Origin: a virus | DNA: 64,000 bases | Reading direction: 5' to 3' (one strand) | Virus record (IMG/VR): IMGVR_UViG_3300035698_031273 | Coordinates: 32,001 to 96,000 of that record | Made by a program: the position numbers and the translations under genes | The notes under the pieces: generated by a model | Told to the model about the DNA's origin: nothing | Databases searched by the model: none | Seen by the model: the letters and a program-made list of their open reading frames with translations, nothing else | In this document: one piece after another, positions 9,601 to 49,600 of the stretch | How the letters are laid out: each line of letters opens with the position of its first letter | Position numbering within the stretch: position 1 is the stretch's first letter

Positions 9601-10490
9601 GGTCTTTGCAGGACTATACCGATAGGGGAAAACGACTTAGAACACAAACGAGCTATTTTGTTTGTGGAGATGCAGAGGATACATTTTTTTTACAAGAGAT
9701 AGGTATATCTCAAGAAAGACAAGATGCTGGTCTATCACAGAGATTTGTATATATGGGTAATGAATCACAAATGGATAAACCTTTTGAGGAAAGTAGATAT
9801 GCTGCTTATAAAGATAAGCACGGAAGAGTAAAATTATATTTTACTACAGAAGGAAAATTAAATATAAAAATAAGTTCTAATTTTCTTACTTGGTCTTATG
9901 CTGGTAAAGATATAGTTTTTCACAGGAATTTCTTTCCTAGTGATGGTAGTATAACTCAGGTTGATTTAAGTGATACTGAAATAAATAATATTCAGACAAT
10001 TTATAATGAATACTCAGATGTAGTTTCAATAGTTTATTTCCATGATAATATGATGTTTTTAAGAAGTTTTCCTAATCATTTAATAGTAGCAAATTATGTG
10101 AATGATCAGTTAGATGCTGAGATTATTACTAATTTTATTAATATCAATAGGGATAATTTTGATGATATTCCGATATTTCTTACGGGTAGATTATCTGATG
10201 AAATTCAATCATCATATACTATTGTTAGAGGAAAAATTGATTCTGGAGCAGTAGTTAAAGAAGCATATTTAGATAGTAATTCATCTATTATGGTACCTTA
10301 TCCAATTGATGAACTATCCGGTTTTTCCGGATTGTTGGATGTAGATACAGAGGTACAGCCATTTGGATTTATAAATGAAACAGGTGCTATAAGATTATTT
10401 TATATGGATTCTGAGGGGAACGTTCAAGGAATGTTAATTATGGCTGGTAAATATCCAACATTGGATGTTAAAATGGAAAATGCTTTATGA
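6624..10490 (+). CDS. Large putative tail-tip/baseplate protein with C-terminal Asp-box propeller-like region
   Basis: 1288 aa directly after TMP; acidic and beta-rich; ISYDNGLSW Asp-box motif. Confidence 0.55.
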   Translation: MAIVCKAEGFLAYNSSDLIPDGYIWPILNKEHPVGGVRQNDLDNPDEGVSFTYERDADGNVTGIIEKRKQLPCSSINIECIFGKQMTNQGGTLVEPGTFFGTPAGSIIAGSLLTGVMTGAPSQGTSNFIFHICATETRFNVPVKITEEILQTGIFELPYYPMSVFAVVKEFVDPNDETDTVPHGLKFTDAQLSQLGLSETRRQYFKIKGVTDYKGRFGGVYGSAAGQPPQYGTPEAVDSISPDLFLEIIRDNRKLKFRGDNPDGGVISGLPVASTTQNDITDKKIKINTDGLTEEDLGKKLYITMCLGRDRYVRHVVSHRGNAINAGSVGGSGTAGIFSIGFVVDAWNYQLCQWMVPKGDPSFNDSDSEFKVPYSSFPAPVTGETLASRVGESDSYDVIEGWRLSEGITYKTSKMWAADKRGIILITIEHGQVKQATDTIIFPRDQIRDQNWFDNYLKENNLEQENISLFSVQDVTGILYDISDINNTLLYDQEKIPYYRPFALALQNVSKYSTDDSQSGVGIVNLDIVNNNLQVDGSFYDLSNSLFKSTPMSSYLASDSTAGEMGYSGFGCTFIDDKGSYFAGSNPSNQTTFSLYVPTGFIIESDWRLFSPEFYGKFSNKTRIYVEDFSGDVTSQLSNLFVKTTPIIEGAISVDHNYFRDAILVFEDNKLNECISFQYFPRRSYKKIRNRLTYNKNLSHNVLPFNHHDFLGVGYDRLIGTIPSYSVGRPASVDYFYACNPHLSGTSYDEIYTKKVLVDEGQVNYIAPDKISIDIDEIDLFRSLQITYYCHNVVNLSEDQKNISLQFTSTNTVINNVYMPFSMSTSSFPNLLIIDCRFYRGGPIILEGEILRYVTIQKIEAITMEQNTFFKYKVDGKQPSMIYSGDNKIAVLYSDKMNNLSITISYDNGLSWFNYQGIIRLAKGETASLPYIVHDDVMSFIHLFYVLNNKFLMYRQVNLNDLVCEDSFLTYNPPDLIGPNISDDEIQGINLDGSLQDYTDRGKRLRTQTSYFVCGDAEDTFFLQEIGISQERQDAGLSQRFVYMGNESQMDKPFEESRYAAYKDKHGRVKLYFTTEGKLNIKISSNFLTWSYAGKDIVFHRNFFPSDGSITQVDLSDTEINNIQTIYNEYSDVVSIVYFHDNMMFLRSFPNHLIVANYVNDQLDAEIITNFININRDNFDDIPIFLTGRLSDEIQSSYTIVRGKIDSGAVVKEAYLDSNSSIMVPYPIDELSGFSGLLDVDTEVQPFGFINETGAIRLFYMDSEGNVQGMLIMAGKYPTLDVKMENAL

Positions 10491-14236: not shown

Positions 14237-17200
14237 ATGGGTACTACCCAATTCTATGCGATGGCCTACTTCGATTTTGGTGATGATCTATCAACTCCTT
14301 TAAATGTACAAAAGGAAATTGATCGTTTTGTTCTTATAGATAAACAAATATATGCTTTATATAATGTTTTTGGAAATGGAGTTATTAGTGGATGGGAAGT
14401 CTCAGACGGGGGATATTCTAATGAAACAGGTATTGCTGTTATTATCTCTCCTGGTATTGGTATAATAAAATATTTAGCTGCTGAAACTACTTTTACTAAT
14501 AATGTTGACGGGTTGCCTCCTAATAGTATTTTCCATTTATATGCAGTTCTACAAGGAAAAACAGTTCAGAATAGGCTTATTAATTTTGCTATTTCATCAA
14601 GTAATATTGACAATGATTCATCTTTGAAGTTGGCTACCATTACAACAGGAGATAATGCTGTAGCCACTATAGACAATACGGTTAGAGATTTAATTAGCTT
14701 TGATGAAGTAATTAGAGAACAAATAGATGCTCATAAACATAGGGGCAGTCCTACTAAAATAGATTTGCAAAATGAAGTTAAGAATCAGTTGCCTGGGGCT
14801 AGAATAGAAGGTATAGATGCTTCTAAAATTGTTAGTGGAACATTTGACCTTGAAAGACTTCCTTCTATTGATCATAATGATCTTGAAAACAATGGTATAT
14901 TAACACATGCTGCACTTGATACTTTATCTAGGTCTTTAACTCAAAGCAATAAAGAGTTATTAGGGGAAATAGCCAGTATAAATCTTTTTAAACAACTTAT
15001 TTTTTTGAAATATAAATTTGATGTACATAATACAGCTTATGTTATTGATGAACATTTTGTCAATGAATTTGTTATTATTCCTGGAATCACTCCCGATGCT
15101 TATATTGATTTTTCTGCCAGTACTGCTCAGATAAATTTACAAGAACATTGTATTAGTGGTAAACCGGCAAAGATAGGTACATTTACATCTATTTATTGGG
15201 ATTCTCAACAATCTTTTGAAGGAGCGGAAAGTTATAGTGATGTTATTATTTCAGGTGGTCAGGTTTCGTTATCTAGAGACTATACAGTAGTAGATATAAT
15301 AGAAAATTTTGAAGAAGCCACTAGACCAGGTCAACCTATCCCTGGTTTTACTAAATCAGTTGTTATTTTAAATGATGATTCAGAGATTGTTGCTGAAGGA
15401 TCTGATGTGAATAAGATAGAAGGTTTTTATAGTGGTAGTTTTACATCTTCAGCCACTATTAGGAGTAACTTTACAAAGATATTTTCTACCCCTCGTAATT
15501 GGACTAATTATAATGAATTAGTTTTTGATATTAAATGTTCTATTACTTCCCATCAACCAGTTTATGGGTATTTTGTTTATGTAGATGGAAATGGAACAGA
15601 ACATAATAGAGAATTTACTATTTTATCAACTAATCAAACGACGTTTAATGAAGATCCTGCTAAAAATAATTTTGAAACGGTTGTGGTGGACATATCATTT
15701 TGGGACAGATCTAATATTACTAAAGTAGTAATATATACTGATGAAAATGATGAAAATTTTGTTTTTTATCTAGACAATATGTTTGTTCGTCGTGAAAATT
15801 TAGTGGTTTCAGAAGGTTTTATAAGATTAAGACATGAAGCACAAACTTCTGTTACTTTTTATTCTGTGATTTATAATGCTACTGTTCCTGACAATACAGG
15901 GATACAGGTTAGGGTTAGAGTAGCTAATTCTGTTGATTTATTAGATAGAGTAGGTTATTCTTTATCTCTTAATGATGGGGATATATTTGCAATAGTAGGG
16001 ACTGCAGCAGAAATCGAAATAAGATTAACTAGTAGTGATGGACAATCTACTCCTATTTTGGATTCTGTTGAATTAAGGATGTTGGTAGAAGCTACTTTTC
16101 ATGGTTTTGATATAAATACTGCTACTGAATGGAATAGGGGAGATAAACAAAATATTACTGTTTCAGAATCAGTTACTTCTTCATTAGATTCTGATCTAAG
16201 TATAAGTCCATATATTAATGTGGACGGATTATCTTTTTCCGTTAAAGATATAATTAGTGAAATAACTGATGAGGGTGTAGCAATTTATGGTATATCTGGT
16301 AAAAATATGCCTATTTCTCCTTTGCAAGCGGCTCATTGGGCTGATTATCCCGCGTATAAGTTTGATGATATACTTTCGGTTGTAAGAAAATATAATAAAC
16401 ATTTTTTAGTGGCAGATTCAAAAAATAATCGAGTTATTGAAGTAGATAAGGATGGTAATTTTATTCGTGGTTTTGCATCTACATATGTTAGTAGTGGCAA
16501 CTTCTACCCTTCTAACTCTTGCTATAAGTCTTCTAATGGTGTTTTAACAATTGTTTGTACTTCATCTTCTATAGTATCAGATATAACTAAAATAGTTCTA
16601 TATTTGAGTGGAGCACCTACAAAGTTAACATCCAATGAGATCGTTTTATCTACGAATAAAGGGCAAGGAAAAGTTATTGAGATACAACTTGGTAGTGTTT
16701 TGATGGCACAGTTGGCTGGGGTAAGTTCAGGACTTACTATAGATTTTGAAGTAGGAGCATTTAGTAGTGGAATTGAAAAAGATTTTAATGCAACTAAATT
16801 ATATGGATTATATGGCATAGAGTGTTTTATTGGTGATTATACTTATATGGATGGTATTAAAACTCCAGTTTTTGTTAATATTTTATCTTCAGATAATTGG
16901 GTTGTGTGTAATGCCGGTATACGTTATACAGAGGATGGAGAAGATATATCTTTTGAAAATCTTGGTGTAGAAGTTCCGTCAATTATTGAGTTTAAACCAT
17001 CTACATTGGAGACTGTTTTTACTACTGATAGAATTGGTTTTTCAGAATTTACATTGGGAAGTTTAGTGGAGATTAGTAGTACTCGGTGGGTGGTAGCAGC
17101 TTTGGGAAGTTTTGCTGGTGCTTTAGGTGCAGTTGTTCCCGATAGTAATATTTCTCATTTTAGATCTGCTGCTTTAGAGGCTCTAAAAGATTTTAGATCA

Positions 17201-17479: not shown

Positions 17480-18580
17480 ATGATAAAAACCAAGATACGC
17501 TACGCATGTTTTTTAAATCATACGGGATATAGTCAAGCAGCACAGGATTATATCTTAGCTTTATATAATAGTGGCAAATATGATATTAAAATAAATTTAT
17601 ATGGAAAGCACCCTTCTAAATTAGCTATATCTGAGAAAACAAATAAATTATTTAAAAATATGATAGATAAAGATGATAATGGTCGTAAAATACTTATATA
17701 TCATTGTATTCCACCTATGCAAAAAAGAGCTGCTTCTTCTAAAATAAATATTGGTTTTGGTACTTTTGAGACTTTTTCACCTCCAGATGATTGGGTGTCA
17801 ATTCTTAAAAGAAATACGGCAGTAATTTTTCCTTCTAGTTTTAATAAAAAAATATTTAGTAATTTTTTGTTTAAAAAACCATGTTTTCATATTCCTCATT
17901 GTGTGAATACTGAATTATATAATGATGCAGTTGAGCCTAAAATTAATTATGACAAATTCACATTTTTATTTATTGGTAGTTGGAGGCTACGAAAGGGTTA
18001 TTCTGCATTACTTGAGGCATATTTTTCTGAATTTGATGTTTCTGATAATGTGCAATTACTTATAAAGACCGATAAGTCAGACCAATCTGAAAAATATATT
18101 TGTGAGTTAAAACGTCAATACAAATTAAAAAGTAAAGGATTACCATCTATTATTTTTGAAAAAGATATATTGGATGAAACAAAAATGCCGGGATTTTTAA
18201 AATCTGCAAATTGTTTAATAATGCCGACAATGGGAGAAGGCTTCGGTTTACCAGGTTTGCAGTGCATGTCTCTTGGAGTACCTATAGTTATAACAAATTT
18301 TTCAGGGTGCCAAGACTATGCTAATAACGACAGGGCAACAATGTTGGAAATAGAGGGATATAGACAATTTTCTAATTTAGATAGGATACCTCAATTTTCC
18401 AATAAAAAATGGGCATTTGTTTCTGTGAGACAAATAAAAGAAAAGATGAGATTTGTGGTAAATAATTATGAACAGGTAGAAAATAAAGCTAAAAATGCCA
18501 TACCGTTTGTTCATAAAGAATTTAATTATAATATCACAGAAGAAAAATTTTCTAGTATGTTGGGAATGTTTTATGATTAA
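17480..18580 (+). CDS. Glycosyltransferase, GT-B fold family 4
   Basis: TGYSQAA N-terminal motif, FIGSWRLRKG, and EGFGLPGLQCMSLGVPIVIT signature. Confidence 0.9.
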   Translation: MIKTKIRYACFLNHTGYSQAAQDYILALYNSGKYDIKINLYGKHPSKLAISEKTNKLFKNMIDKDDNGRKILIYHCIPPMQKRAASSKINIGFGTFETFSPPDDWVSILKRNTAVIFPSSFNKKIFSNFLFKKPCFHIPHCVNTELYNDAVEPKINYDKFTFLFIGSWRLRKGYSALLEAYFSEFDVSDNVQLLIKTDKSDQSEKYICELKRQYKLKSKGLPSIIFEKDILDETKMPGFLKSANCLIMPTMGEGFGLPGLQCMSLGVPIVITNFSGCQDYANNDRATMLEIEGYRQFSNLDRIPQFSNKKWAFVSVRQIKEKMRFVVNNYEQVENKAKNAIPFVHKEFNYNITEEKFSSMLGMFYD

Positions 18581-37767: not shown

Positions 37768-40700
37768 ATGCCTATTTTAACACCTCATTATAGTTTAACT
37801 GCATTCAACTGGGGAGACATTTATTCGTCTGCTGCAGATAAATCTAGATTTACCATAATTGATAATCAACTAGCTTTTTTATCAGATAGGGTTGGAGATG
37901 GACGTATAGATGGATGGCAAGTAACTGTGGAGAACTATTCTACCAGAGAAATATCTGTTTCTTATGGTTTTGGTATAATAGATAGATTTGCTACTTATAC
38001 TCATGGAGTTGTGTCTACTCAAGTTCCATTAGATCGTATTAGTTATTTATATATGAGACGTAAAAATAATTTATTAGGAGGGTTTAGTGGATATTCAAAT
38101 CGAGCAACCTTTTCTTATTTGGATACTATTTCACCTTTAGCCCCATCTAATTTAAATATTTCTTCTCTCTCTTCTTACAGTTTAACTCTTTCTTGGAATG
38201 CTAATTCTGAAGCAGATATAAATAATTATAGAGTATATAAAAGTTCTGATGGTATTACATATACATTCTTAGAAGATACTGTAAAAAATACTTATACCGA
38301 TTCTACTGTAGATGAAAATACAATTTATTTTTACAGGGTATATGCAGTTGATAATAGCGGTAATATAAGTGATCCTTCTGCTATTTTCATTTCGACTTTA
38401 GCAGATGATACCGTGCCGTCCAATCCAACATATTTTCAAGTTTATGAAGGAGATGAAAGTTTACAAATTCTTTGGGACCCAGCTCCAGCAGGTAATTTAA
38501 AAATTCCAGGGACTTTAATGACATATGAAATAGTTCTGGATTTATTAGATGAAGCAGGACAGTCAACAGGAGATGAATTTAGTATTCATTCTGATGATGC
38601 AGAAAATAAATTAATTGCTCGTGATTTACTTAATGGTCGTAGTTATAAGGTTACTATTTATTCTATTAGTAAAAGTGATGTTTTGTCAACTGGATTATCT
38701 CTTGTTAGAACACCTAGATATAATCAAGGTGCTACAGAAGTAGATTCAGTTAGTGTAACTTATAGACGAGGAATTGTTGAAGATATAGACATAGTTATGA
38801 TGATTACATGGGTTTTTGAACCGGATCCTTCATCTTCAGATATTGGTCCTGGAAAGATTCCGGATAAGTACACGGTTACTGTAATTGAAAATGGAGCACG
38901 AGAGGGAGAGCCTATTTATGTTTTAGGTTCAGATGCAACTTCAATTAATTTGAGATTATTACCATTTAAAGATTCATCTGGTTCCATTATATATGAATAT
39001 GTAAAGCCATATACAGAATATACAATTATTGTTCGTACTGTTTATGAGGAAATGGTTAGCAATGGAAACGTTAAAAGAACTACTAGTCCCGTATATCAAG
39101 TTCCTTTGCCAGTTAGTAATTTAGAGGCAGTTAGAAAAAATAATAATGATGTATTATTCAGGTGGAATAATACGACATCTCCTTATTTTTCCCATAATAT
39201 AGTTAGTTGTACAATAGTTTATTTAGACGATCCTAGTCAAGCAGATATTATTATAGCAAGTGGCTTAGACATAGGAAAAGCCACTACTTATATAGTTGAT
39301 TCTTCATATTTTGTATCTTCTGCAAGGTATGAATTTAATATTCAAGTTTTTGATTTATTTGACAATGAGAGTGTTATAAAACAAGTTATGTATTCAACTC
39401 CTGATGCAGTTGTTTTAGGCAAACCTAGCGTGCCAAACAATCAGGATATTTCTTTAAGATATGGGGAAATAAAGATATTTTGGGACCCAATGAGTGAAGA
39501 AGAAATTACAGGATATAGGATATATCGTGCTGTTTATAATGTATTTTTAAGACCTTCTAATTTTGTGCGTTTGAGCACATTGTCTTCTGGACAAGTTGAA
39601 TATTCTGATTATGTTGTTGATACAGAAATTATTTATGCTTATTTTGTAACTTCTATTGATATTTTTGGTATTGAATCTTTAAATCCTGTAGATGATAATT
39701 ATATGTCGTATCCTTTATTGATTGGAAGTGCTATGTTAAATGCTTCTTTTTCAACTCCAACTAATTTAACAGCGGTTGAATCTGGTCTAAGTGCATATTT
39801 AACATGGGATTTATCTAATGAATTATTTGATGGCTATCAAATATTTAGATCTAGGGGGAATGATTATTCTTTTGAGCATATAGGATCAGCCGGTTTTTCA
39901 GAAACTACTTTTTTAGATGAAAATGCTTTAATCATATCCGGAGACTATTATTATGTTGTAAGAAAGTTTAAAAATGAAGGACAGTTATTTATAACAGAAT
40001 CTACTGTCATTCCTTCTTCGGCAATAATATTAGCTAAAATAACTTGTTCCACAGATCCATTATCTATAACAGGTATTTCTATCATTATAGATCAGACTGT
40101 TGCTAATGAAATTAAAAATTTACAGGATTTAATTTATTCAGAAACACAAGAGCAAATAGAGGCTCATAAGCATGTATTTGATACTGAACGTGATGTTGAT
40201 AAAAGAATAGATCTTTATTCTAATATCGTTGTTGTAAATTGGATTACTCCTGATTATCGTACATATACAACAGATACAGACATACAGGGAGCTACAACAT
40301 ATATATTAAAAGTAAGTGGAACGGTTAATGAAGATTATTTTGTAGATGAAAATGGAAATGTTCAGACAGCTAAAATAGAGACTGCTAAAGATGGGTATTC
40401 TCCTATAAATTATCAGGTTGATTTAGATAATGGAGATATAACATTTGAAGCAACGTTGTATAGTCCTGTTTCTGGTGTTTCTGTTCCATATTCCACTGTC
40501 CCCTTTGTTTCATTGCAGGTCATTGGTATTGTTGAGACTCAAAATGATTTGCCAAGTTCTAGGTTAGAGAATTTAAGTGCAACACAGATAGTATCTGGAA
40601 AATTAAATACTGTTCAACTTCCGTCTATTTCTCATCAAGGAAGACTTAATGAAGAACTAATACCTATTGGGATATCGTTAATATCTGTTGATAATTTTGT

Positions 40701-43511: not shown

Positions 43512-45395
43512 ATGGTGGATGAGTTAATAATGCCTACTGGAGAATATGATAATTGCGAATATGGTTACAGATGTTGGAATCTTATAAATAAATCAGTTGG
43601 TTTTTGGAAGATGGAAGATAATGTAGCAAATACTGATGTTACTGATAGTTTATATGATAATACCGGATTTGCCAGTTGCGATACAAATACTATTAGTGTA
43701 GATGGAAAAATAGGCAGATGTTTCAATTTTGATGGATGGTCGGTATATCTTTCTATGCCTCGGTGGGATTTTATTAATAGTGGATATGACTATTCTGTTT
43801 CTTTGTGGCTAAACGCAGAAATCATAACTGGTGGAACTATATGGCAACTGGCTATGGAAAGTGGGGAATATACAGGATTAAAAATTAGTGCCGCTGGGCA
43901 ACTTATTTATAGTGGTTTAGATTCCGATGGAGCACTTTTGGGGAATTATACTACCATAGTGGCTGATACTTGGTATCATGTTGTTTGTGCATTTGATTCT
44001 AGTTCGGGTGTTTCTTATCTATATGTTAATGGGGTATTATATGATGATTTTCTTCATGCAGTATTGGGAGCTAATACGTCTTATTTGTATGTAGGTATTT
44101 CTATGAGTGCCCCTGGAGTTATTAGCGATTATTTTAATGGGAAAATAGATGAGTTTAGTGTTTTCAATTATACTTTATCACAAGAAGAAGTTCTAGATTT
44201 GTATAATTATGGAAATGGAACAGAGGGACTTTTAGGGGGAGGTAGGTATTATCTTTATAAAGATGAATCTATAACGGTAAACGAAACCAAATCAATAGAA
44301 TTGATTTGTAATGACGACGAAAGTGCATCTGTTATTGTTGGTGATAATATACATTTTGTTGGACAAGATAATGGTAAATTAGTATGGGATATTGGAGGAG
44401 AGAACGAATATACTTTTTATAGTACTACTGCAAAAGAGGGAGAAGAAATACGGAGAAGATCTGGTGATCAAGAATTTGTGGTAAAATGGATTGGAATTGG
44501 TAGTCAATTATTTGATGTGATTTTGTATAATTCTGCTGTCAAACGGGCACAAATATTTGATATTAATAGTTCTTTTATACCAACTAAATCATCTCTTTAT
44601 CTAAGGAGATCTGGTTTAGATGTGGCAAGTTTTTTTACTATTAATGATTTTTCTCCTCTTATTATAGATGCTAGTAATTTTTTAAATTTACAACAAAATG
44701 GTTATAGACTTATGTTGAACGATACGTACACTGACTATACTGGAAATGGATTTATGGAAGTGGTTAGGGGAAACTCAACCAGTAGATATCCAATTGCTGA
44801 ATATCCCATAAGAGCAACTAGTCCAGGATTGTTTTATTTGTATGTTAGAGGTCAAGCATTAATGGCAGAATATAAATTTGATGTTTTAATAGACAATAAT
44901 GTGGTTTCTTCTATTAGTGAAACTTTTGCATTCCCTTCAACTCAATGGAGATGGTTTAGTACTTCTTTTGTTATTCCCGATACTTTAACTCATACCCTTG
45001 GGATTAGGATGAATGCTGATGAAACAACTTTAGATCAGTTATATATATCAGCAATAGATGATCCTACTTTATTTGTTGATGATTATTCTGCTTCTTTATC
45101 AATTAGTCCTTTTGTAACTTTACATGCTAATTTATATAAGGTAGATAATGATTATAACATTTTAGAAAGATTTTTTATATATGATTGCAAAAATACTATT
45201 GAGGATATTCGTGGAGATGGGTGGTATAATTTTGATTTACAATTATTTGGTGATGATGCTCCCGATTTTACTGAAAAAGCAGCAATTGTTTTTTCAACCA
45301 GTGGAGACAATATGACTAATTATATTGTTTGGGAATTTTCTACTACTGAAGATGGTAATCCTTATTATTTATTACCATCGGCTGTAAAGGTGTAA
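43512..45395 (+). CDS. LamG plus CBM-like domain structural protein
   Basis: 627 aa. VGFWKME...GKIG..FNFDG...WYHVV...GKIDEFSVF (LamG); YTGNGFM...FYLYVRG...HTLGIRM...LDQLYI (CBM6/35-like). Confidence 0.7.
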   Translation: MVDELIMPTGEYDNCEYGYRCWNLINKSVGFWKMEDNVANTDVTDSLYDNTGFASCDTNTISVDGKIGRCFNFDGWSVYLSMPRWDFINSGYDYSVSLWLNAEIITGGTIWQLAMESGEYTGLKISAAGQLIYSGLDSDGALLGNYTTIVADTWYHVVCAFDSSSGVSYLYVNGVLYDDFLHAVLGANTSYLYVGISMSAPGVISDYFNGKIDEFSVFNYTLSQEEVLDLYNYGNGTEGLLGGGRYYLYKDESITVNETKSIELICNDDESASVIVGDNIHFVGQDNGKLVWDIGGENEYTFYSTTAKEGEEIRRRSGDQEFVVKWIGIGSQLFDVILYNSAVKRAQIFDINSSFIPTKSSLYLRRSGLDVASFFTINDFSPLIIDASNFLNLQQNGYRLMLNDTYTDYTGNGFMEVVRGNSTSRYPIAEYPIRATSPGLFYLYVRGQALMAEYKFDVLIDNNVVSSISETFAFPSTQWRWFSTSFVIPDTLTHTLGIRMNADETTLDQLYISAIDDPTLFVDDYSASLSISPFVTLHANLYKVDNDYNILERFFIYDCKNTIEDIRGDGWYNFDLQLFGDDAPDFTEKAAIVFSTSGDNMTNYIVWEFSTTEDGNPYYLLPSAVKV

Positions 45396-45397
45396 AA

Positions 45398-46663
45398 ATG
45401 ACTGATATAGGAAGAACAGATATTGTTAAGATTTCTAGTCCTGTATCATCAAATTATCTTCAATTTGGTCAGAGTATTTCGATGTGGGGCAATTATATTG
45501 CTGTTGGTGCTATAATGGATAGAAATGATGCTGGAACAAGAACAGGTGTTGTTTATTTGTATCAAAAAGATGGTACTTATGTTCGTAAAATAGTTCCATC
45601 TGATGGAGTGGTAAATGGCTATTTTGGAATTAGTGTTTGTTTGTATGAGGATTATTTGATTGTTGGATCTCATGGAAAAAACAATAGGGCAGGGGGTGCT
45701 TATTTGTATAAAATAAGTGACACTGGTTTTGAAGATATAGAAACATTTGGTGGTGTTGCAAATTCATATTTTGGATGGAGAGTAAAAATATATGATGGGA
45801 CAATTTTAATTTCAGCACCTTATTCTGAGGATACAGAAGGAAGAGCTTATGTATATACTTATGATACTTTAGGTATGACTTTATCTTATCAAATTGTTGC
45901 CTCAGATGCTAAGTGGGGAGATCGTTTTGGCTATGCAATAGATCTTTTGGGAGACAATATAATAATTACAGCACCATCTCAGGAATATCCAGCACCAGAT
46001 CCATCTGAAGATACTATATGGATAGACCCTTATACTCCTTATGAGGGACCAGATCCTCGAGCATATTTGTATAAAGTTAGTGATAATCTTTATGAAAGAA
46101 TTATTCGTCCATCAGTATTTCGTTATGATAGTAGATTCGGACAATCTTGTTCAACATATGGAGATACAATTGTAGTAGGAGAGCCTAAAGCAAGAAATTA
46201 TGAAGATAGGGAAGTAGGGGCAATAAATTTTTTCAGTATATCAGACTCATCTTATAATAAAAAAATATTTGATGCTGTTAACACTTCTTCTAGTTTTCTT
46301 TCTACGAGTAACTTTGCTTATAGGCTTTCTGTTACTTCTGATTATATCTTTGTTGGGGATACTGAGTATTATAGAGATGGTTCTATTATTGGTTGCGTAG
46401 CTGTTTTTGATTATAATGAAAATTTATTAGGAAGAATAACCACTAGTCAGGTTAGTGATGGTTCTAATTTTTCTTATGGTTTATGTTCTTTTGGTCCTTA
46501 TATAGGGATTACGGCTCCTCTTGATTCTTATTCTGGTTATACAAACATTGGTTCGGCTTTTATCGTTAGAATGGACGGGAGTATTTTTTTCCCTACTGAA
46601 ATAACAACATTGCAAATGATAGACTACTACAAAGGCTTAGGAGGTCAGTCTTCAGATGGATAA
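45398..46663 (+). CDS. Seven-bladed FG-GAP repeat beta-propeller protein
   Basis: Seven FG.S....G..I.VGA-type repeats (FGQS, FGIS, FGWR, FGYA, FGQS, FAYR, FSYG). Confidence 0.85.
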   Translation: MTDIGRTDIVKISSPVSSNYLQFGQSISMWGNYIAVGAIMDRNDAGTRTGVVYLYQKDGTYVRKIVPSDGVVNGYFGISVCLYEDYLIVGSHGKNNRAGGAYLYKISDTGFEDIETFGGVANSYFGWRVKIYDGTILISAPYSEDTEGRAYVYTYDTLGMTLSYQIVASDAKWGDRFGYAIDLLGDNIIITAPSQEYPAPDPSEDTIWIDPYTPYEGPDPRAYLYKVSDNLYERIIRPSVFRYDSRFGQSCSTYGDTIVVGEPKARNYEDREVGAINFFSISDSSYNKKIFDAVNTSSSFLSTSNFAYRLSVTSDYIFVGDTEYYRDGSIIGCVAVFDYNENLLGRITTSQVSDGSNFSYGLCSFGPYIGITAPLDSYSGYTNIGSAFIVRMDGSIFFPTEITTLQMIDYYKGLGGQSSDG

Positions 46664-49600
46664 AAATACTTGGCTTTTAGATTTTGACAGAACACATGCT
46701 TTTACCATTTATTCAGATTTTGATGCATGGGACGAAGATAACATAAGCATAACAATTCCTCCTGAAAGCGAAGATACACTTCATTTAACAAGATTTTCGG
46801 ATCTTCTTGGGCAAGAATTTTATCGTACAAAAATAACAGAGGATGGAGATTCTGAAATTGTAGAGTTGAATTTAGACGAAAGACTTATTACTCTTGTTGT
46901 TGATCAGAGTGGAAGTATGACTTGGAATGATAATTCTTCTTTACGTCATGAATTAGTTAAAGATATGATTAATGTTTTAAGTGCTACTTATCCTGGTAAT
47001 ATTAAATATAATCTGGTAGAATTTGGTGGGACACCAGTACAAATATTTTTCTATGGTATGGTGGTAGACTACAGTATAGAAGATTCAAATATTATTTCTT
47101 TAAATTCTCAAATATTTGGTGACGCTGATAATAATTTTGCTGGAGTTAGGGTGGTTAGAAAAATAGGTTCTTATCCAAATGATCCTCTTGATGGAGATAT
47201 TGTTACAGAAGGGCTTATGACCAAGGCATTAGATGAAAATTTAACTCCTGGAACAAGATATTACTATACATTATTTACTTATGATTCTAATTATGTTTTT
47301 AGTAATGGAATTAGAATTTCTGCTGTTCCAATAACAAGAGAAATACCGAGGGGAATTTCTCTTATAAATTATGATATTTATAAAGGAACAGGAGTTATAA
47401 GAGATGACAATACTGTTGGATTATGGCATTTTGATGAGCAGAAAGGAAGCATGGTATATGATTTTTCTGACTCAAAAATAGATCTTCTTTTGAATGGAAA
47501 TGAAGTTTGGTATCAAGCAGATCAGGTTGCTTCTGGAATTTCTGGTATCAGATTTAATGGAGTTAATACATATCTATATTCTGATGAATTAAATACTGAA
47601 CAGACATTGTCTGATGAAATTACAATTATGGCATTTATATTTCCTTATGAAGTTTATGATCCTTCTCCCGATCCATCTATCGATAATCCATCTGAGGACG
47701 AAATAAGTTATCCAATAGTTGTAAGACAAAATGTTAGTAGAATCAATTATGTTTTTTATATGTCAAATGATAGACTTGGTTTTTCTAATGGTGTAACTAA
47801 TGTAGTTTCTGATGAAGGAGTTCTTAGAGAAAATGAATGGAATCATGTTTCAGTAACATGTAATTTTTTAACAGGATTAACTATATTTTATGTTAATGGG
47901 GTTGATGTGGGACAAGAAGTTTTATCTACTATTGGTACTGCAGCTAATCTAATGGAACTTATGTATACTGATATAGGATACGATAGATATTCTAAAACAA
48001 CAAGTCTTCAATATTTTTGGGGCAGAATATGCGAAGTAAGTATTCATAATACTGTTAGAAATAATGATTATATTTTAAGTTATTCTGATAGCAATTTAGA
48101 TGACAATTATAAGATGATAAAATCTGAGAACGAATTAGATAATGGAGACAGATTAGTTCTTTTGAAGTATGCTATCCCTGAGGATTTTAATTTTTCAGGT
48201 GGTTCTGTAAAAATCATAAAAAGCGAAAAAAATATTCCGTCGTGGGATGGAGATCAAGATAGTACAATTTTATTATCGAGAAATCATAATACATATGGAT
48301 TTTTCTATACCACTGATACAGATGATTTTGCTTTAGGTGAGACATATTATTATAGGATTTATTCTGAGAATGTTTTGGGGAATGTTAGTTATCCTTCTGA
48401 TTCTCCTTCTATTGAGGTGCAAATTCCAGAAATTTCTCAATTAGATTATTTACCATCTATTTCTCTTACAAGTGTTCCGTCTAATTTAATTGTTAGACCT
48501 GGTAATACAAAGGCATATTTGGAATGGAATAATGGAATACAGGATGACGTATCAAGAATAAAAATTTATCATTCTTATAATTCCTATCCTATTGTTGATA
48601 CTAATGGAGAATCAAGTGGAACATTAGTTTACACTGGATTTTCGGGAGATAATGAATATGTTCATAGATATGTTGAAAATGACAGGAGATCTTATTATAC
48701 AGTATATTATTTAGATAAATATAAACGTCCTTCTGAGTTAGATGATGATATTTTATCTATAAGTGGAAGTGTGATGCCGACTCATGATAGCAATGACATT
48801 GGTATTCCATTGATGGAAGTTGAAAATGTTTATTATGAATTGGTTAATAATGATTCAATAAGTATTTCTTGGGAGCATCCTGTAGGGTTTCAAAAAGATA
48901 TAAGCGGATATTTAGATCAGAAAGTATTATTTTATGCTGCTGTTACAAATCAGTATGGAGTACTTATAGAAGATCAAATATCAGTTACGATGGAAATTGT
49001 TCCTAATATCTTGAGGCAAGATCAGGCAGAAGATGTTTTTATTAATAGAAATGCTTCTGATGTCACAGATAAAGATCTTTATCAATTTTCCGTTAGTGAA
49101 GATGAGACATCTGGTTTTGTTAAAGGTACGTTGACGATGACCATGGATTCTTATTTTCTCGGTGTAATTTCTGAAGCCTCTTTTTCAGTAAGGGTTACTT
49201 GTCGTATACCTGATAGTAGTGGCACAGGGGATTTATTTTCTTTTAAATCTGATTTTATAACTGTTAGTCTAGATAATCCATGGGATATAGAATTAATAAA
49301 TAGGGACAATTTGCAGGTAACTGAAAAATGTTATATTGTGGAATCTGGACAATCTAGTAAAGCTTTTGGAGGTCTTCTTTCTGTGGCTGAAAGGCCAGAT
49401 AGGTTGATTAGATCGTTGCAAACTTTTAATGGAATATATATCAGATCGGAAAACCCATTTACAGCACGTGCTATTTTGACTTATAGAGGAGATTCTTTAT
49501 CAAGAGAAATAAGTGTTGACGTAGCGGCCTGGGAATCTGAAATGAATCTTTGTGCTTATGCTTCTTCAGATGTGCAATATGAAGGACAGAGAATAAGACC

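What the first reader, a model, noticed from the sequence alone, without database searches (positions are those of the whole stretch)
44541..46725. Whole FG-GAP gene inserted inside a beta-sandwich domain shared by its two neighbours
Seen: 43512 has KRAQIF...LYLRRSG, an inserted CBM-like domain, then LHANLY...GWYNFD...AIVFSTSG...NYIVW...PYYLLPSAVKV*. After the FG-GAP gene, 46656 begins MDKNTWLLDFDRTHAFTIY. From memory, the choice-of-anchor-R-like domain (AQxF...LYL..G...W..F...IV...NY..W...Y...TW....F.IY) ends with that TW...F.IY segment. Also, the FG-GAP ORF ends SSDG* and removing one T gives SSDG-KNTW, possibly a relic of the uninterrupted sequence. The family assignment is inference.
Basis: partly seen in the sequence, partly recalled or inferred. 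Interest (0 to 1): 0.72.

Follow-up and report, generated by a model that had tools for sequence, protein, structure and literature searches.

The report
FG-GAP gene inside a split phage domain
In this giant phage a small sugar-binding-type fold is encoded half at the end of one gene and half at the start of another. That split is old and common in related phages, but only this lineage has a whole FG-GAP propeller gene in the gap, once fused to the downstream gene and since cut off by a one-base shift.

Summary
The last about 285 residues of the 43512 protein are a lectin-like beta-sandwich with a nested CBM6/35-like domain. This sandwich stops one hairpin short. The missing two strands (TWLLD, HAFTIYS) open the 46656 protein.

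- In about 35 relatives the two parts are one polypeptide. In over 100 they are adjacent genes cut at the same loop.
- An AlphaFold model of a natural fused form places these strands inside one sandwich. It matches the phi812 tripod protein at Z 13.3 and Cwp84 at Z 12.5.
- The FG-GAP ORF did not cause the split. The cut predates it, and none of 24 related loci has a gene there.
The FG-GAP ORF runs in frame into the ancestral leader of the downstream gene (MIDYYKGLGGQSS). Skipping one base restores the family's exact spacing.
- The same shift is fixed in a lineage about 81% identical, seen in several assemblies.
- No slippery site or RNA structure supports programmed frameshifting.
- 'Choice-of-anchor R' found no HMM support.
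- Joining of the two chains by strand complementation is inferred, not shown.

The scan has reported similar split-domain joints in other phages.

The parts
43512..45395 (+). Gene for the 627-aa upstream protein: N-terminal LamG-type domain plus the C-terminal 'socket' domain
   Evidence: ORF. Pfam Laminin_G_3 at aa 89-227, E 1.4e-17. An 80%-identical orthologue, P0055, is 619 aa.
44541..45392 (+). Lectin-like beta-sandwich lacking its last hairpin; it ends with the family's conserved terminal strand (PSAVKV)
   Evidence: 166 representative homologues. Split forms all end ...DEY..PSAIK(I/V)* at this point. The fold is inferred from models of homologues.
44616..45053 (+). Nested CBM6/CBM35-like jelly-roll inserted after the first strands of the sandwich (approximate limits)
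   Evidence: The equivalent block of homologue L017 (model residues 16-158) matches CBM6E 8j3x_A at Z 17.6, rmsd 2.1, 126 aligned, and CBM35 4qb1_A at Z 14.8. Foldseek E was 3e-7 to 2e-6. Mapped to the window by alignment.
45398..46663 (+). FG-GAP repeat propeller ORF (421 aa), unique to this lineage at this position
   Evidence: Pfam FG-GAP_2, E 1.9e-35, 5 stretches. None of 24 related loci has a gene between the socket domain and the 46656 homologue, apart from one 55-aa mini-ORF in L022. GC3 is 0.156, like its neighbours.
46616..46660 (+). Tail of the FG-GAP ORF (MIDYYKGLGGQSSDG): the ancestral start codon and leader of the downstream gene, now in the FG-GAP frame
   Evidence: Profile hit at positions 3-20, abutting the 46656-frame hit. 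Homologues begin M..(L/I)(E/D)YYKA.NGESSL..TW. The tail is identical in relatives P0205 and P0325-P0328.
46656..46663 (+). Frame-switch site: ATGGATAA holds the start of 46656 and the stop of the FG-GAP ORF. Skipping T46661 restores one reading frame
   Evidence: Sequence. ATG 46656 is the first start codon after the in-frame stop (frame print). The AGGAGG at 46639-46644 was read by eye.
46656..52409 (+). Giant downstream protein (1917 aa): plug hairpin, first half of a vWA domain, LamG, Kelch propeller
   Evidence: Pfam VWA_2 at aa 79-131, Laminin_G_3 at aa 319-472, Kelch at aa 1553-1737. 54 homologues.
46668..46718 (+). The two 'plug' strands (TWLLD and HAFTIYS) that belong to the upstream sandwich
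   Evidence: They align to strands E138-141 and E144-151 of the L052 model, where 10-residue block pLDDT is 83-94. They lie inside the range matched by phi812 and Cwp84. In P0116, P0149, P0150 and L022 they are encoded apart from the giant protein.

Best explanation
This is the virion adhesin/baseplate gene block of a giant phage (a 107-kb fragment, estimated about 22% of the genome).

**The joint.** A lectin-like beta-sandwich with a nested CBM6/35-like module sits at the junction of two proteins, and its coding sequence is cut in the loop before its last hairpin.
- The upstream protein (43512: LamG plus sandwich) ends with the strand PSAVKV.
- The giant downstream protein (46656: vWA, LamG, Kelch) begins with the missing strands TWLLD and HAFTIYS.
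- This cut arose from a fused ancestor and is kept in a large clade of related phages.

**Likely mechanism (inferred).** The N-terminal hairpin of the giant protein most probably completes the sandwich of the small protein in trans. That would fasten a small exchangeable sugar-binding module to the giant protein.

**History of the FG-GAP gene (inferred from sequence relics).**
1. In this lineage an FG-GAP propeller module came to lie in the joint, as an N-terminal extension of the downstream gene, in frame with its leader (MIDYYKGLGGQSS).
2. A one-base insertion then created a TAA stop.
3. By chance this put the ATG inside GATGGA in phase with the rest of the gene.

The result is three genes, with the FG-GAP stop and the 46656 start overlapping (ATGGATAA). 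That overlap favours coupled translation.

**Shown:** the homology, the architectures, the frame relic and its fixation. **Inferred:** trans-complementation, the order of events, and coupling.
For: **Fused and split forms**
- Residues 2-270 of P0018, P0021, P0023, P0027 and P0033 match 43512 aa 346-623 (E 5e-36 to 2.5e-12). Residues 270-660 match 46656 aa 1-400.
- Ten IMG/VR loci show the same fusion.
- Among 150 representatives: 88 stand-alone, 28 FG-GAP+domain, 5 LamG+domain, about 25 fused.
- Split forms end uniformly at PSAIK(I/V)*.

**Tree.** Fused forms are basal. The window and P0055 lie inside a 106-row clade that is almost entirely split (SH-aLRT 94), itself inside a 124-row clade with support 100.

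**Structure**
- L052 is a natural insert-less fused form. Its model has pLDDT 83-97 over residues 11-150.
- The plug strands have 10-residue block pLDDT of 94 and 83.
- phi812 baseplate chain 9euf_0: Z 13.3, rmsd 2.5, 141 aligned over model residues 6-155.
- Cwp84 4ci7_A: Z 12.5, 136 aligned over 4-154.

**Sliding boundary**
- In P0116, P0149 and P0150 the plug strands are fused to the socket protein. Their giant partners P0030 and P0032 start after the strands.
- In L022 the strands form a separate 55-aa ORF.

**Frame relic**
- Colinear profile hits in two frames.
- The same 12-residue YY-to-TW spacing.
- The same arrangement in P0205/P0001 (81% identity) and in cluster members from JGI, Logan and ENA.

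**Precedent.** The C-terminal hairpin of Tuc2009 BppU completes a sheet of BppA domain 2 (PMC4742702).
Against: - No coordinates of the models were available, so strand pairing was judged from DSSP, pLDDT and aligned ranges only.
- In the CBM-containing fused model (L017) the plug strands have only pLDDT 53-71.
- 88 clusters of stand-alone socket proteins show that the truncated domain can be made alone and may be stable without the plug.
- Forms in which the plug is covalently on the socket protein (P0116, P0149, P0150) leave the giant protein without it. In those phages attachment must use something else.
- The origin of the FG-GAP module is unresolved. It is no closer to the FG-GAP modules of related socket proteins (up to 33% identity, 82 bits) than to generic FG-GAP proteins (BLAST E-values down to about 1e-25).
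- The window's domain is outside the FG-GAP+domain clade.
Confidence: 0.68

Rival explanations
1. Programmed +1 ribosomal frameshifting at GGA-UAA-A. A fraction of ribosomes would skip U46661 and make an FG-GAP-46656 fusion of about 2336 aa alongside the two separate proteins, as phages do for some capsid and tail genes.
For: - The shift restores the family's exact reading and spacing.
- The arrangement and an 18-residue identical stretch ending one residue before the stop are conserved at 81% overall identity, in several assemblies.
- A stop codon in the zero frame is the classical pause element of +1 sites (general knowledge).
Against: - After a +1 slip from GGA, the P-site tRNA-Gly would face GAU and could not re-pair. 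Known sites use CUU-U or CCC-U (own knowledge of prfB and Listeria phage PSA).
- The AGGAGG lies 13 nt upstream of the GGA codon, not about 3 nt as in prfB. It fits better as the ribosome-binding site of ATG 46656.
- No stable RNA structure (z = +0.85) and no Rfam element.
- An identical run of 18 residues is only the third longest in the alignment, so it is not exceptional.
Confidence: 0.06
2. The 43512 domain is complete and autonomous. The TW...F.IY segment would be merely the start of the next module of the giant protein. Fused relatives would show neighbouring domains on one chain, not one shared domain.
For: - Stand-alone socket proteins are the commonest form: 88 clusters, all ending at the same residue.
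- pLDDT of the plug strands is modest (53-71) in the CBM-containing fused model.
- No multimer prediction could be run.
Against: - In the insert-less model the strands are confident (10-residue block pLDDT 83-94). The best structural matches align 136-141 residues over a span of about 150 that includes them.
- Natural forms attach these strands to the socket protein and detach them from the giant protein (P0116, P0149, P0150, L022). That is the opposite of what this rival predicts.
- In insert-less forms the cut lies in an Asp-box-like hairpin, S-x-D-x-G-x-T-W (motif recognised by eye).
Confidence: 0.2
3. Different order of events. The FG-GAP gene arrived as a free-standing cassette in the short spacer between the two genes. 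Separately, the downstream gene suffered the one-base shift and re-started at ATG 46656. The FG-GAP stop was then lost, so its ORF now reads through the dead 15-codon leader.
For: - Related split loci have a spacer of about 10 nt or an overlap where a cassette could land.
- The FG-GAP module is not detectably closer to the locus's own FG-GAP modules than to generic ones.
- The window's domain lies outside the FG-GAP+domain clade.
Against: - It needs three events (insertion, frameshift, stop loss) against two for the fusion-then-frameshift route.
- None of the 54 homologues of the 46656 protein carries FG-GAP, so neither route has an intermediate on record.
Confidence: 0.25

Closest known systems
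Lactococcus phage Tuc2009 baseplate tripod: the BppU C-terminal beta-hairpin completing a sheet of BppA domain 2 (PMC4742702)
   Same: A two-strand hairpin at the end of one baseplate protein completes a beta-sandwich of a separate carbohydrate-binding accessory protein and holds it on the baseplate.
   Different: - There the joint is seen in a crystal structure. Here it is inferred.
- The plug here is N-terminal, on a protein of about 1900 aa.
- The socket fold is lectin-like with a nested CBM, not titin-like.
- Here natural fused, split, re-fused and three-piece versions all exist.
Staphylococcus phage 812 tripod protein 'leg' domain and the C. difficile Cwp84 lectin-like domain
   Same: Best structural matches to the insert-less domain are 9euf_0 (Z 13.3) and 4ci7_A (Z 12.5). 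The phage 812 paper itself likens the tripod leg sandwich to Cwp84 and suggests receptor binding (PMC13433997).
   Different: - No sequence similarity is detectable.
- In those proteins the domain is encoded on one chain.
- I inferred that chain 9euf_0 is the tripod protein from the paper's description. I did not check the chain table.
CBM6 / CBM35 carbohydrate-binding modules
   Same: The nested block has this jelly-roll fold: 8j3x_A at Z 17.6, and 4qb1_A at Z 14.8 with 122 of 128 residues aligned.
   Different: - It is nested inside another sandwich of a phage structural protein.
- No Pfam CBM hit on the window protein.
- Ligand-binding residues were not examined.
Donor-strand complementation in chaperone-usher pili
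   Same: An incomplete Ig-like sandwich is completed by a strand from the next subunit.
   Different: - Pili use one donor strand and a chaperone-mediated exchange, repeated along a polymer.
- Here a single hairpin joins two different proteins, and covalent (fused) versions exist in relatives.
vWA domain split between 46656 and 52406 in the same gene block
   Same: The same giant protein has a second intradomain gene boundary that is closed in relatives. I also saw 46656 and 52406 fused in L016, L017 and others.
   Different: It is a different domain and boundary, and no extra gene sits in that cut.

Membership tests
   No NCBIfam hit at E up to 10 for 43512 aa 335-627, 43512 aa 238-627, 46656 aa 1-200, the insert-less L052 aa 1-200, or L017 aa 1-300. 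HMMER filters drop most very weak matches, so a very distant relation is not excluded.
FG-GAP_2 repeat (PF14312) beta-propeller | Repeated FG-GAP_2 profile matches above the gathering score | tested here: met
   E 1.9e-35, 121 bits against a cut-off of 23, in 5 stretches. About seven G-x-A-Y-hydrophobic strands by eye (inference).
Cwp84-type lectin-like beta-sandwich (as in the phage 812 tripod leg) | Structural superposition over the whole domain | tested here: met
   Tested on the model of homologue L052 aa 1-200: 9euf_0 at Z 13.3, rmsd 2.5, 141 aligned; 4ci7_A at Z 12.5, rmsd 2.6, 136 aligned. Carried over to the window protein by alignment.
Cwp84-type lectin-like beta-sandwich (as in the phage 812 tripod leg) | Detectable sequence homology to solved members | tested here: inconclusive
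   A profile of alignment A5 found no PDB sequence at E up to 1.
CBM6/CBM35 fold (nested block) | Jelly-roll superposition over a whole CBM | tested here: met
   8j3x_A at Z 17.6, rmsd 2.1, 126 aligned; 4qb1_A at Z 14.8, 122 of 128 residues aligned; 2vzp_A at Z 14.1. Tested on the model of homologue L017.
CBM6/CBM35 fold (nested block) | Sugar- and calcium-binding residues | not tested
   No residue-level comparison was made.
Trans beta-hairpin complementation joint (Tuc2009 BppU-BppA type) | One protein ends before the last strands of a sandwich, and its partner begins (or ends) with exactly those strands | tested here: met
   Shown by alignment to natural fused forms and by the model.
Trans beta-hairpin complementation joint (Tuc2009 BppU-BppA type) | Physical complex of the two chains through that sheet | not testable with these tools
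   No multimer prediction is offered. A chimeric sequence may not be submitted, and model coordinates are not returned.
Programmed +1 frameshift site (prfB / phage 'shifty stop' type) | P-site codon whose tRNA can re-pair in the +1 frame, followed by a stop | tested here: not met
   The site is GGA-TAA. The +1 codon is GAU, which cannot re-pair (sequence; the rule comes from my own knowledge of prfB).
Programmed +1 frameshift site (prfB / phage 'shifty stop' type) | Stimulatory element (close upstream SD, or RNA structure) | tested here: not met
   The AGGAGG lies 13 nt upstream of the GGA codon. Fold z = +0.85. No Rfam match.
Gene fission of a single ancestral gene | Orthologous single-ORF forms in relatives with conserved synteny | tested here: met
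   The order 37768-like | domain | 46656-like | 52406-like is conserved. The domain and giant protein are one ORF in L017, L020, L021, L023-L025, L027, L032-L034 and L052.

The most novel reading that the evidence does not exclude
The joint may now be a three-chain assembly. The ancestral N-terminal segment of the giant protein has been divided between two proteins. The leader (MIDYYKGLGGQSS) is now the C-terminal tail of the FG-GAP propeller, and the hairpin is still on the giant protein. Both pieces would dock on the 43512 sandwich. In that case the one-base shift turned a fused propeller into a separately made, non-covalently attached adhesin. More generally, the split sandwich would be an evolvable plug-and-socket into which giant phages splice new receptor-binding modules.
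Probability: 0.2. Interest if true: 0.72.

Novelty: new variant of a known kind. Interest (0 to 1): 0.55.

Why it matters
**A natural series of one domain boundary.** Within one phage family the same boundary appears in five states:
- fused;
- cut before the last hairpin;
- cut after it;
- cut on both sides, giving a 55-aa mini-gene;
- cut with a whole propeller gene in the gap.

Such a series is good material for asking how giant virion proteins are broken into, and rebuilt from, separately encoded pieces, and how new adhesin modules are added without destroying assembly.

**A datable frameshift.** The one-base shift made a stop and a start at once, which illustrates how a fused gene can survive fission.

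**Annotation.** The terminal domain of the upstream protein and the N-terminus of the giant protein should be read together.

Tried and rejected
I could not fetch the DNA of the 81% relatives or of P0048-type proteins that way.
I folded natural fused homologues instead.
- **Model coordinates** are not returned, so strand pairing was not measured directly.
- **First searches with the whole 43512 protein** found only LamG matches.
- **Alignment A4** was misaligned by the CBM insert and was discarded. A5, built from sub-ranges, was used instead.
- **Scanning viral contigs** for P0048-type proteins found only the loci already known. A degenerate DNA pattern for the tail found no other viral contig.
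- **A remnant-socket idea** was dropped. I considered that the FG-GAP ORF retains the first strand of a deleted socket domain (FFPTE against FVPTK). It is a match of only 4-5 residues, and AFIVRMDG is simply the last FG-GAP blade motif.
- **A permutation-by-duplication origin** from an FG-GAP-LamG-domain ancestor (P0084, P0132) is not supported beyond marginal BLAST ranking. The tree places the window outside that clade.
- **Pfam and NCBIfam scans** gave nothing for the sandwich.
- **A PDB sequence search** found nothing.


Full report
**Setting**

The window is bases 32001-96000 of a 107-kb IMG/VR virus record that CheckV rates at 22% complete. GC content is 31%. Related contigs reach 548 kb, so this is a giant phage.

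Positions 3-55 kb hold a run of same-strand genes for very large proteins with FN3, LamG, vWA, Kelch and FG-GAP domains. The finding covers three of them:
- 43512-45395, 627 aa;
- 45398-46663, 421 aa, FG-GAP_2 at E 1.9e-35;
- 46656-52409, 1917 aa.

**Observation**

The FG-GAP ORF ends GAT GGA TAA. The next gene starts at the ATG inside GATGGA, giving an 8-base overlap. ATG 46656 is the first start codon after the in-frame stop.

**Are the two flanks one domain?**

The 43512 protein has LamG at aa 89-227 and no family match for aa 335-627. A full HMMER search with aa 335-627 found 166 representative proteins. By architecture they divide as follows:

| Architecture | Clusters |
|---|---|
| Domain alone (275-300 aa) | 88 |
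| FG-GAP + domain | 28 |
| LamG + domain | 5 |
| FG-GAP + LamG + domain | 2 |
| Domain at the N-terminus of proteins of 1100-3281 aa that continue as the 46656 protein | about 25 |

- In five long homologues, residues 2-270 match 43512 aa 346-623 (E 5e-36 to 2.5e-12) and residues 270-660 match 46656 aa 1-400.
- In 24 related loci the gene order 37768-like | domain | 46656-like | 52406-like is conserved. The domain is either a separate gene directly upstream or part of one ORF of about 3250 aa.
- All separate forms stop at the same place...W-E-x-x-D-x-D-E-Y-x-x-x-P-S-A-I-K-(I/V)*. The 43512 protein ends the same way, NPYYLLPSAVKV*.
- The next protein then begins M..(L/I)(E/D)YYKA.NGESSL..TW.(I/L)N..KRHAF.(I/V)YSD.

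**Structure**

I could not fold a chimera, so I folded natural fused forms.

*L017 aa 1-400 (47-row alignment).* pLDDT is above 88 for residues 1-240. Strands at 262-266, 271-275 and 282-286 correspond to PSAIKI, TWLLD and FTIYS, at pLDDT 53-71. Residues 16-158 are a CBM6/35 jelly-roll: 8j3x_A at Z 17.6, and 4qb1_A at Z 14.8 with 122 of 128 residues aligned (Foldseek).

*L052 aa 1-200.* A metagenome locus (L052, GC 49%) encodes a form without the CBM, still followed directly by the TW and F.Y strands and the vWA start.
- pLDDT is 83-97 for residues 11-150.
- Strands fall at 129-132, 138-141 and 144-151. The 10-residue blocks 131-140 and 141-150 score 94 and 83.
- An all-against-representatives structural search aligned 141 residues over model 6-155 to the phage phi812 baseplate chain 9euf_0 (Z 13.3, rmsd 2.5). 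It aligned 136 residues over 4-154 to the Cwp84 lectin-like domain (Z 12.5). The next matches were PBCV-1, Bxb1 tail-tip and cyanophage A4 virion proteins at Z 10-12.
- The phage 812 paper describes the tripod 'leg' sandwich as Cwp84-like and a possible receptor-binding site (PMC13433997).

Almost every residue of the span is aligned, so the last hairpin lies inside the one domain. The 43512 domain therefore ends one hairpin short, and 46656 supplies that hairpin. In insert-less forms the cut falls in an Asp-box-like turn, S-x-D-x-G-x-T-W (recognised by eye).

**The boundary slides**

- P0116, P0149 and P0150 carry linker, leader and both strands at the end of the socket protein and stop at ...YSDFD.IED*.
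- Giant proteins P0030 and P0032 start just after, at MAKKIVVPP.
- In L022 the leader plus the two strands form a separate 55-aa ORF (L022:9819-9986) between the two genes.
- L056 splits the giant protein and the 52406 homologue into two genes each. L016, L017 and others fuse 46656 with 52406.

**Did FG-GAP cause the split?**

No. In a maximum-likelihood tree of 143 domain sequences, fused forms occupy the basal clades. A 106-row clade (SH-aLRT 94, inside a 124-row clade at 100) is almost entirely split. The window and P0055 (support 100) lie inside it, next to LamG+domain and stand-alone forms. They lie outside the 45-row FG-GAP+domain clade, which has support 98. The root is at the midpoint only.

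None of the 24 loci has a gene of 100 aa or more in the cut. The FG-GAP ORF has the same GC3 as its neighbours. Its source is unresolved.

**The relic**

The FG-GAP ORF ends ...TTLQ-M-IDYYKGLGGQSSDG*. A profile of 30 split-type N-termini matches this tail at positions 3-20 in the FG-GAP frame. It matches 46656 from position 19/21 onward in the other frame, at E 1e-18.

The tail hit alone is weak window-wide (E 1.2). Its weight comes from three things: it is colinear and adjacent to the strong hit, the YY-to-TW spacing (12 residues) equals that of homologues once one base is skipped, and the M is where their start codon lies.

Orthologues at 81% identity have the same arrangement. P0205 and P0325-P0327 are 420-421 aa and come from JGI, Logan and ENA; the cluster also holds a 148-aa fragment, P0328. 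All five end ...MIDYYKGLGGQSSDE*, and P0001 and P0330 start MNKNTW. The shift is therefore real and fixed, not an assembly error.

The simplest history has two steps. FG-GAP became an N-terminal extension of the downstream gene, and a one-base insertion then made TAA and brought a fortuitous ATG into phase.

**Programmed frameshifting** is unlikely:
- there is no codon at which the tRNA could re-pair;
- the AGGAGG is 13 nt from the site and fits as the ribosome-binding site of 46656;
- there is no RNA structure (z = +0.85) and no Rfam match;
- the identical tail run (18 residues) is only the third longest in the orthologue alignment.

**Mechanism**

By analogy with Tuc2009, where the C-terminal hairpin of BppU completes a sheet of BppA (PMC4742702), the 46656 hairpin most likely completes the 43512 sandwich in trans. 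That would hang a LamG plus CBM module on the giant protein. This step is inference. Whether the FG-GAP tail still docks there is open.

**Family name**

'Choice-of-anchor R' was not supported by any HMM search. No Pfam match to the sandwich itself was found.

**Verdict**

This is a real and well-documented intradomain gene boundary, with a lineage-specific propeller gene and a frame relic in it. It is a new variant of a kind of joint known from Tuc2009 and already noted by this scan in other phages.

Noticed in passing
L022:9819-9986 (IMGVR_UViG_3300037247_001786): A 55-aa mini-ORF encodes only the leader plus the two plug strands. It lies between the socket gene (same frame, stop at 9804-9806) and the giant gene (ATG 9989, MTKKIVVPP).
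   Followed up: partly
Proteins P0116, P0149, P0150; P0030, P0032: An alternative cut. The socket protein carries linker, leader and plug and ends ...YSDFD.IED*. The matching giant proteins start right after the plug (MAKKIVVPP).
   Followed up: partly
L056:200-10021; L016:9941-18865; L017:9188-18928: Fission and fusion are rampant in this block. L056 splits the 46656 and 52406 homologues into two genes each. L016 fuses 46656 with 52406. L017-type loci fuse the domain, 46656 and 52406 into about 3250 aa.
   Followed up: partly
L052:6001-6450 and P0048-P0053 aa 125-145: Insert-less forms have an Asp-box-like S-x-D-x-G-x-T-W turn exactly where other phages place the gene boundary.
   Followed up: no
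window 14237-14540 and 37768-38070: The 1073-aa and 1905-aa proteins share an N-terminal module of about 100 aa (33% identity, E 3.5e-6), and a second short block (47% over 34 aa).
   Followed up: no
L035:2900-11800 (IMGVR_UViG_3300045125_000158): Homologues of 37768, the socket domain and 46656 are broken into many short ORFs under table 11. This could mean decay, assembly errors or a different genetic code.
   Followed up: no
window 55411-59644: A block downstream of the giant genes is syntenic with L028: 29-43% identity to five consecutive ORFs. The window gene list has one more ORF here, 17480-18580.
   Followed up: no
L017:9254-9475 (aa 23-96 of the fused protein): The nested CBM gives a sub-threshold Pfam hit to GH115_C (E 1.6e-4, 22 bits against a cut-off of 24.1). 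This agrees with the structural matches to C-terminal domains of GH115 enzymes.
   Followed up: no
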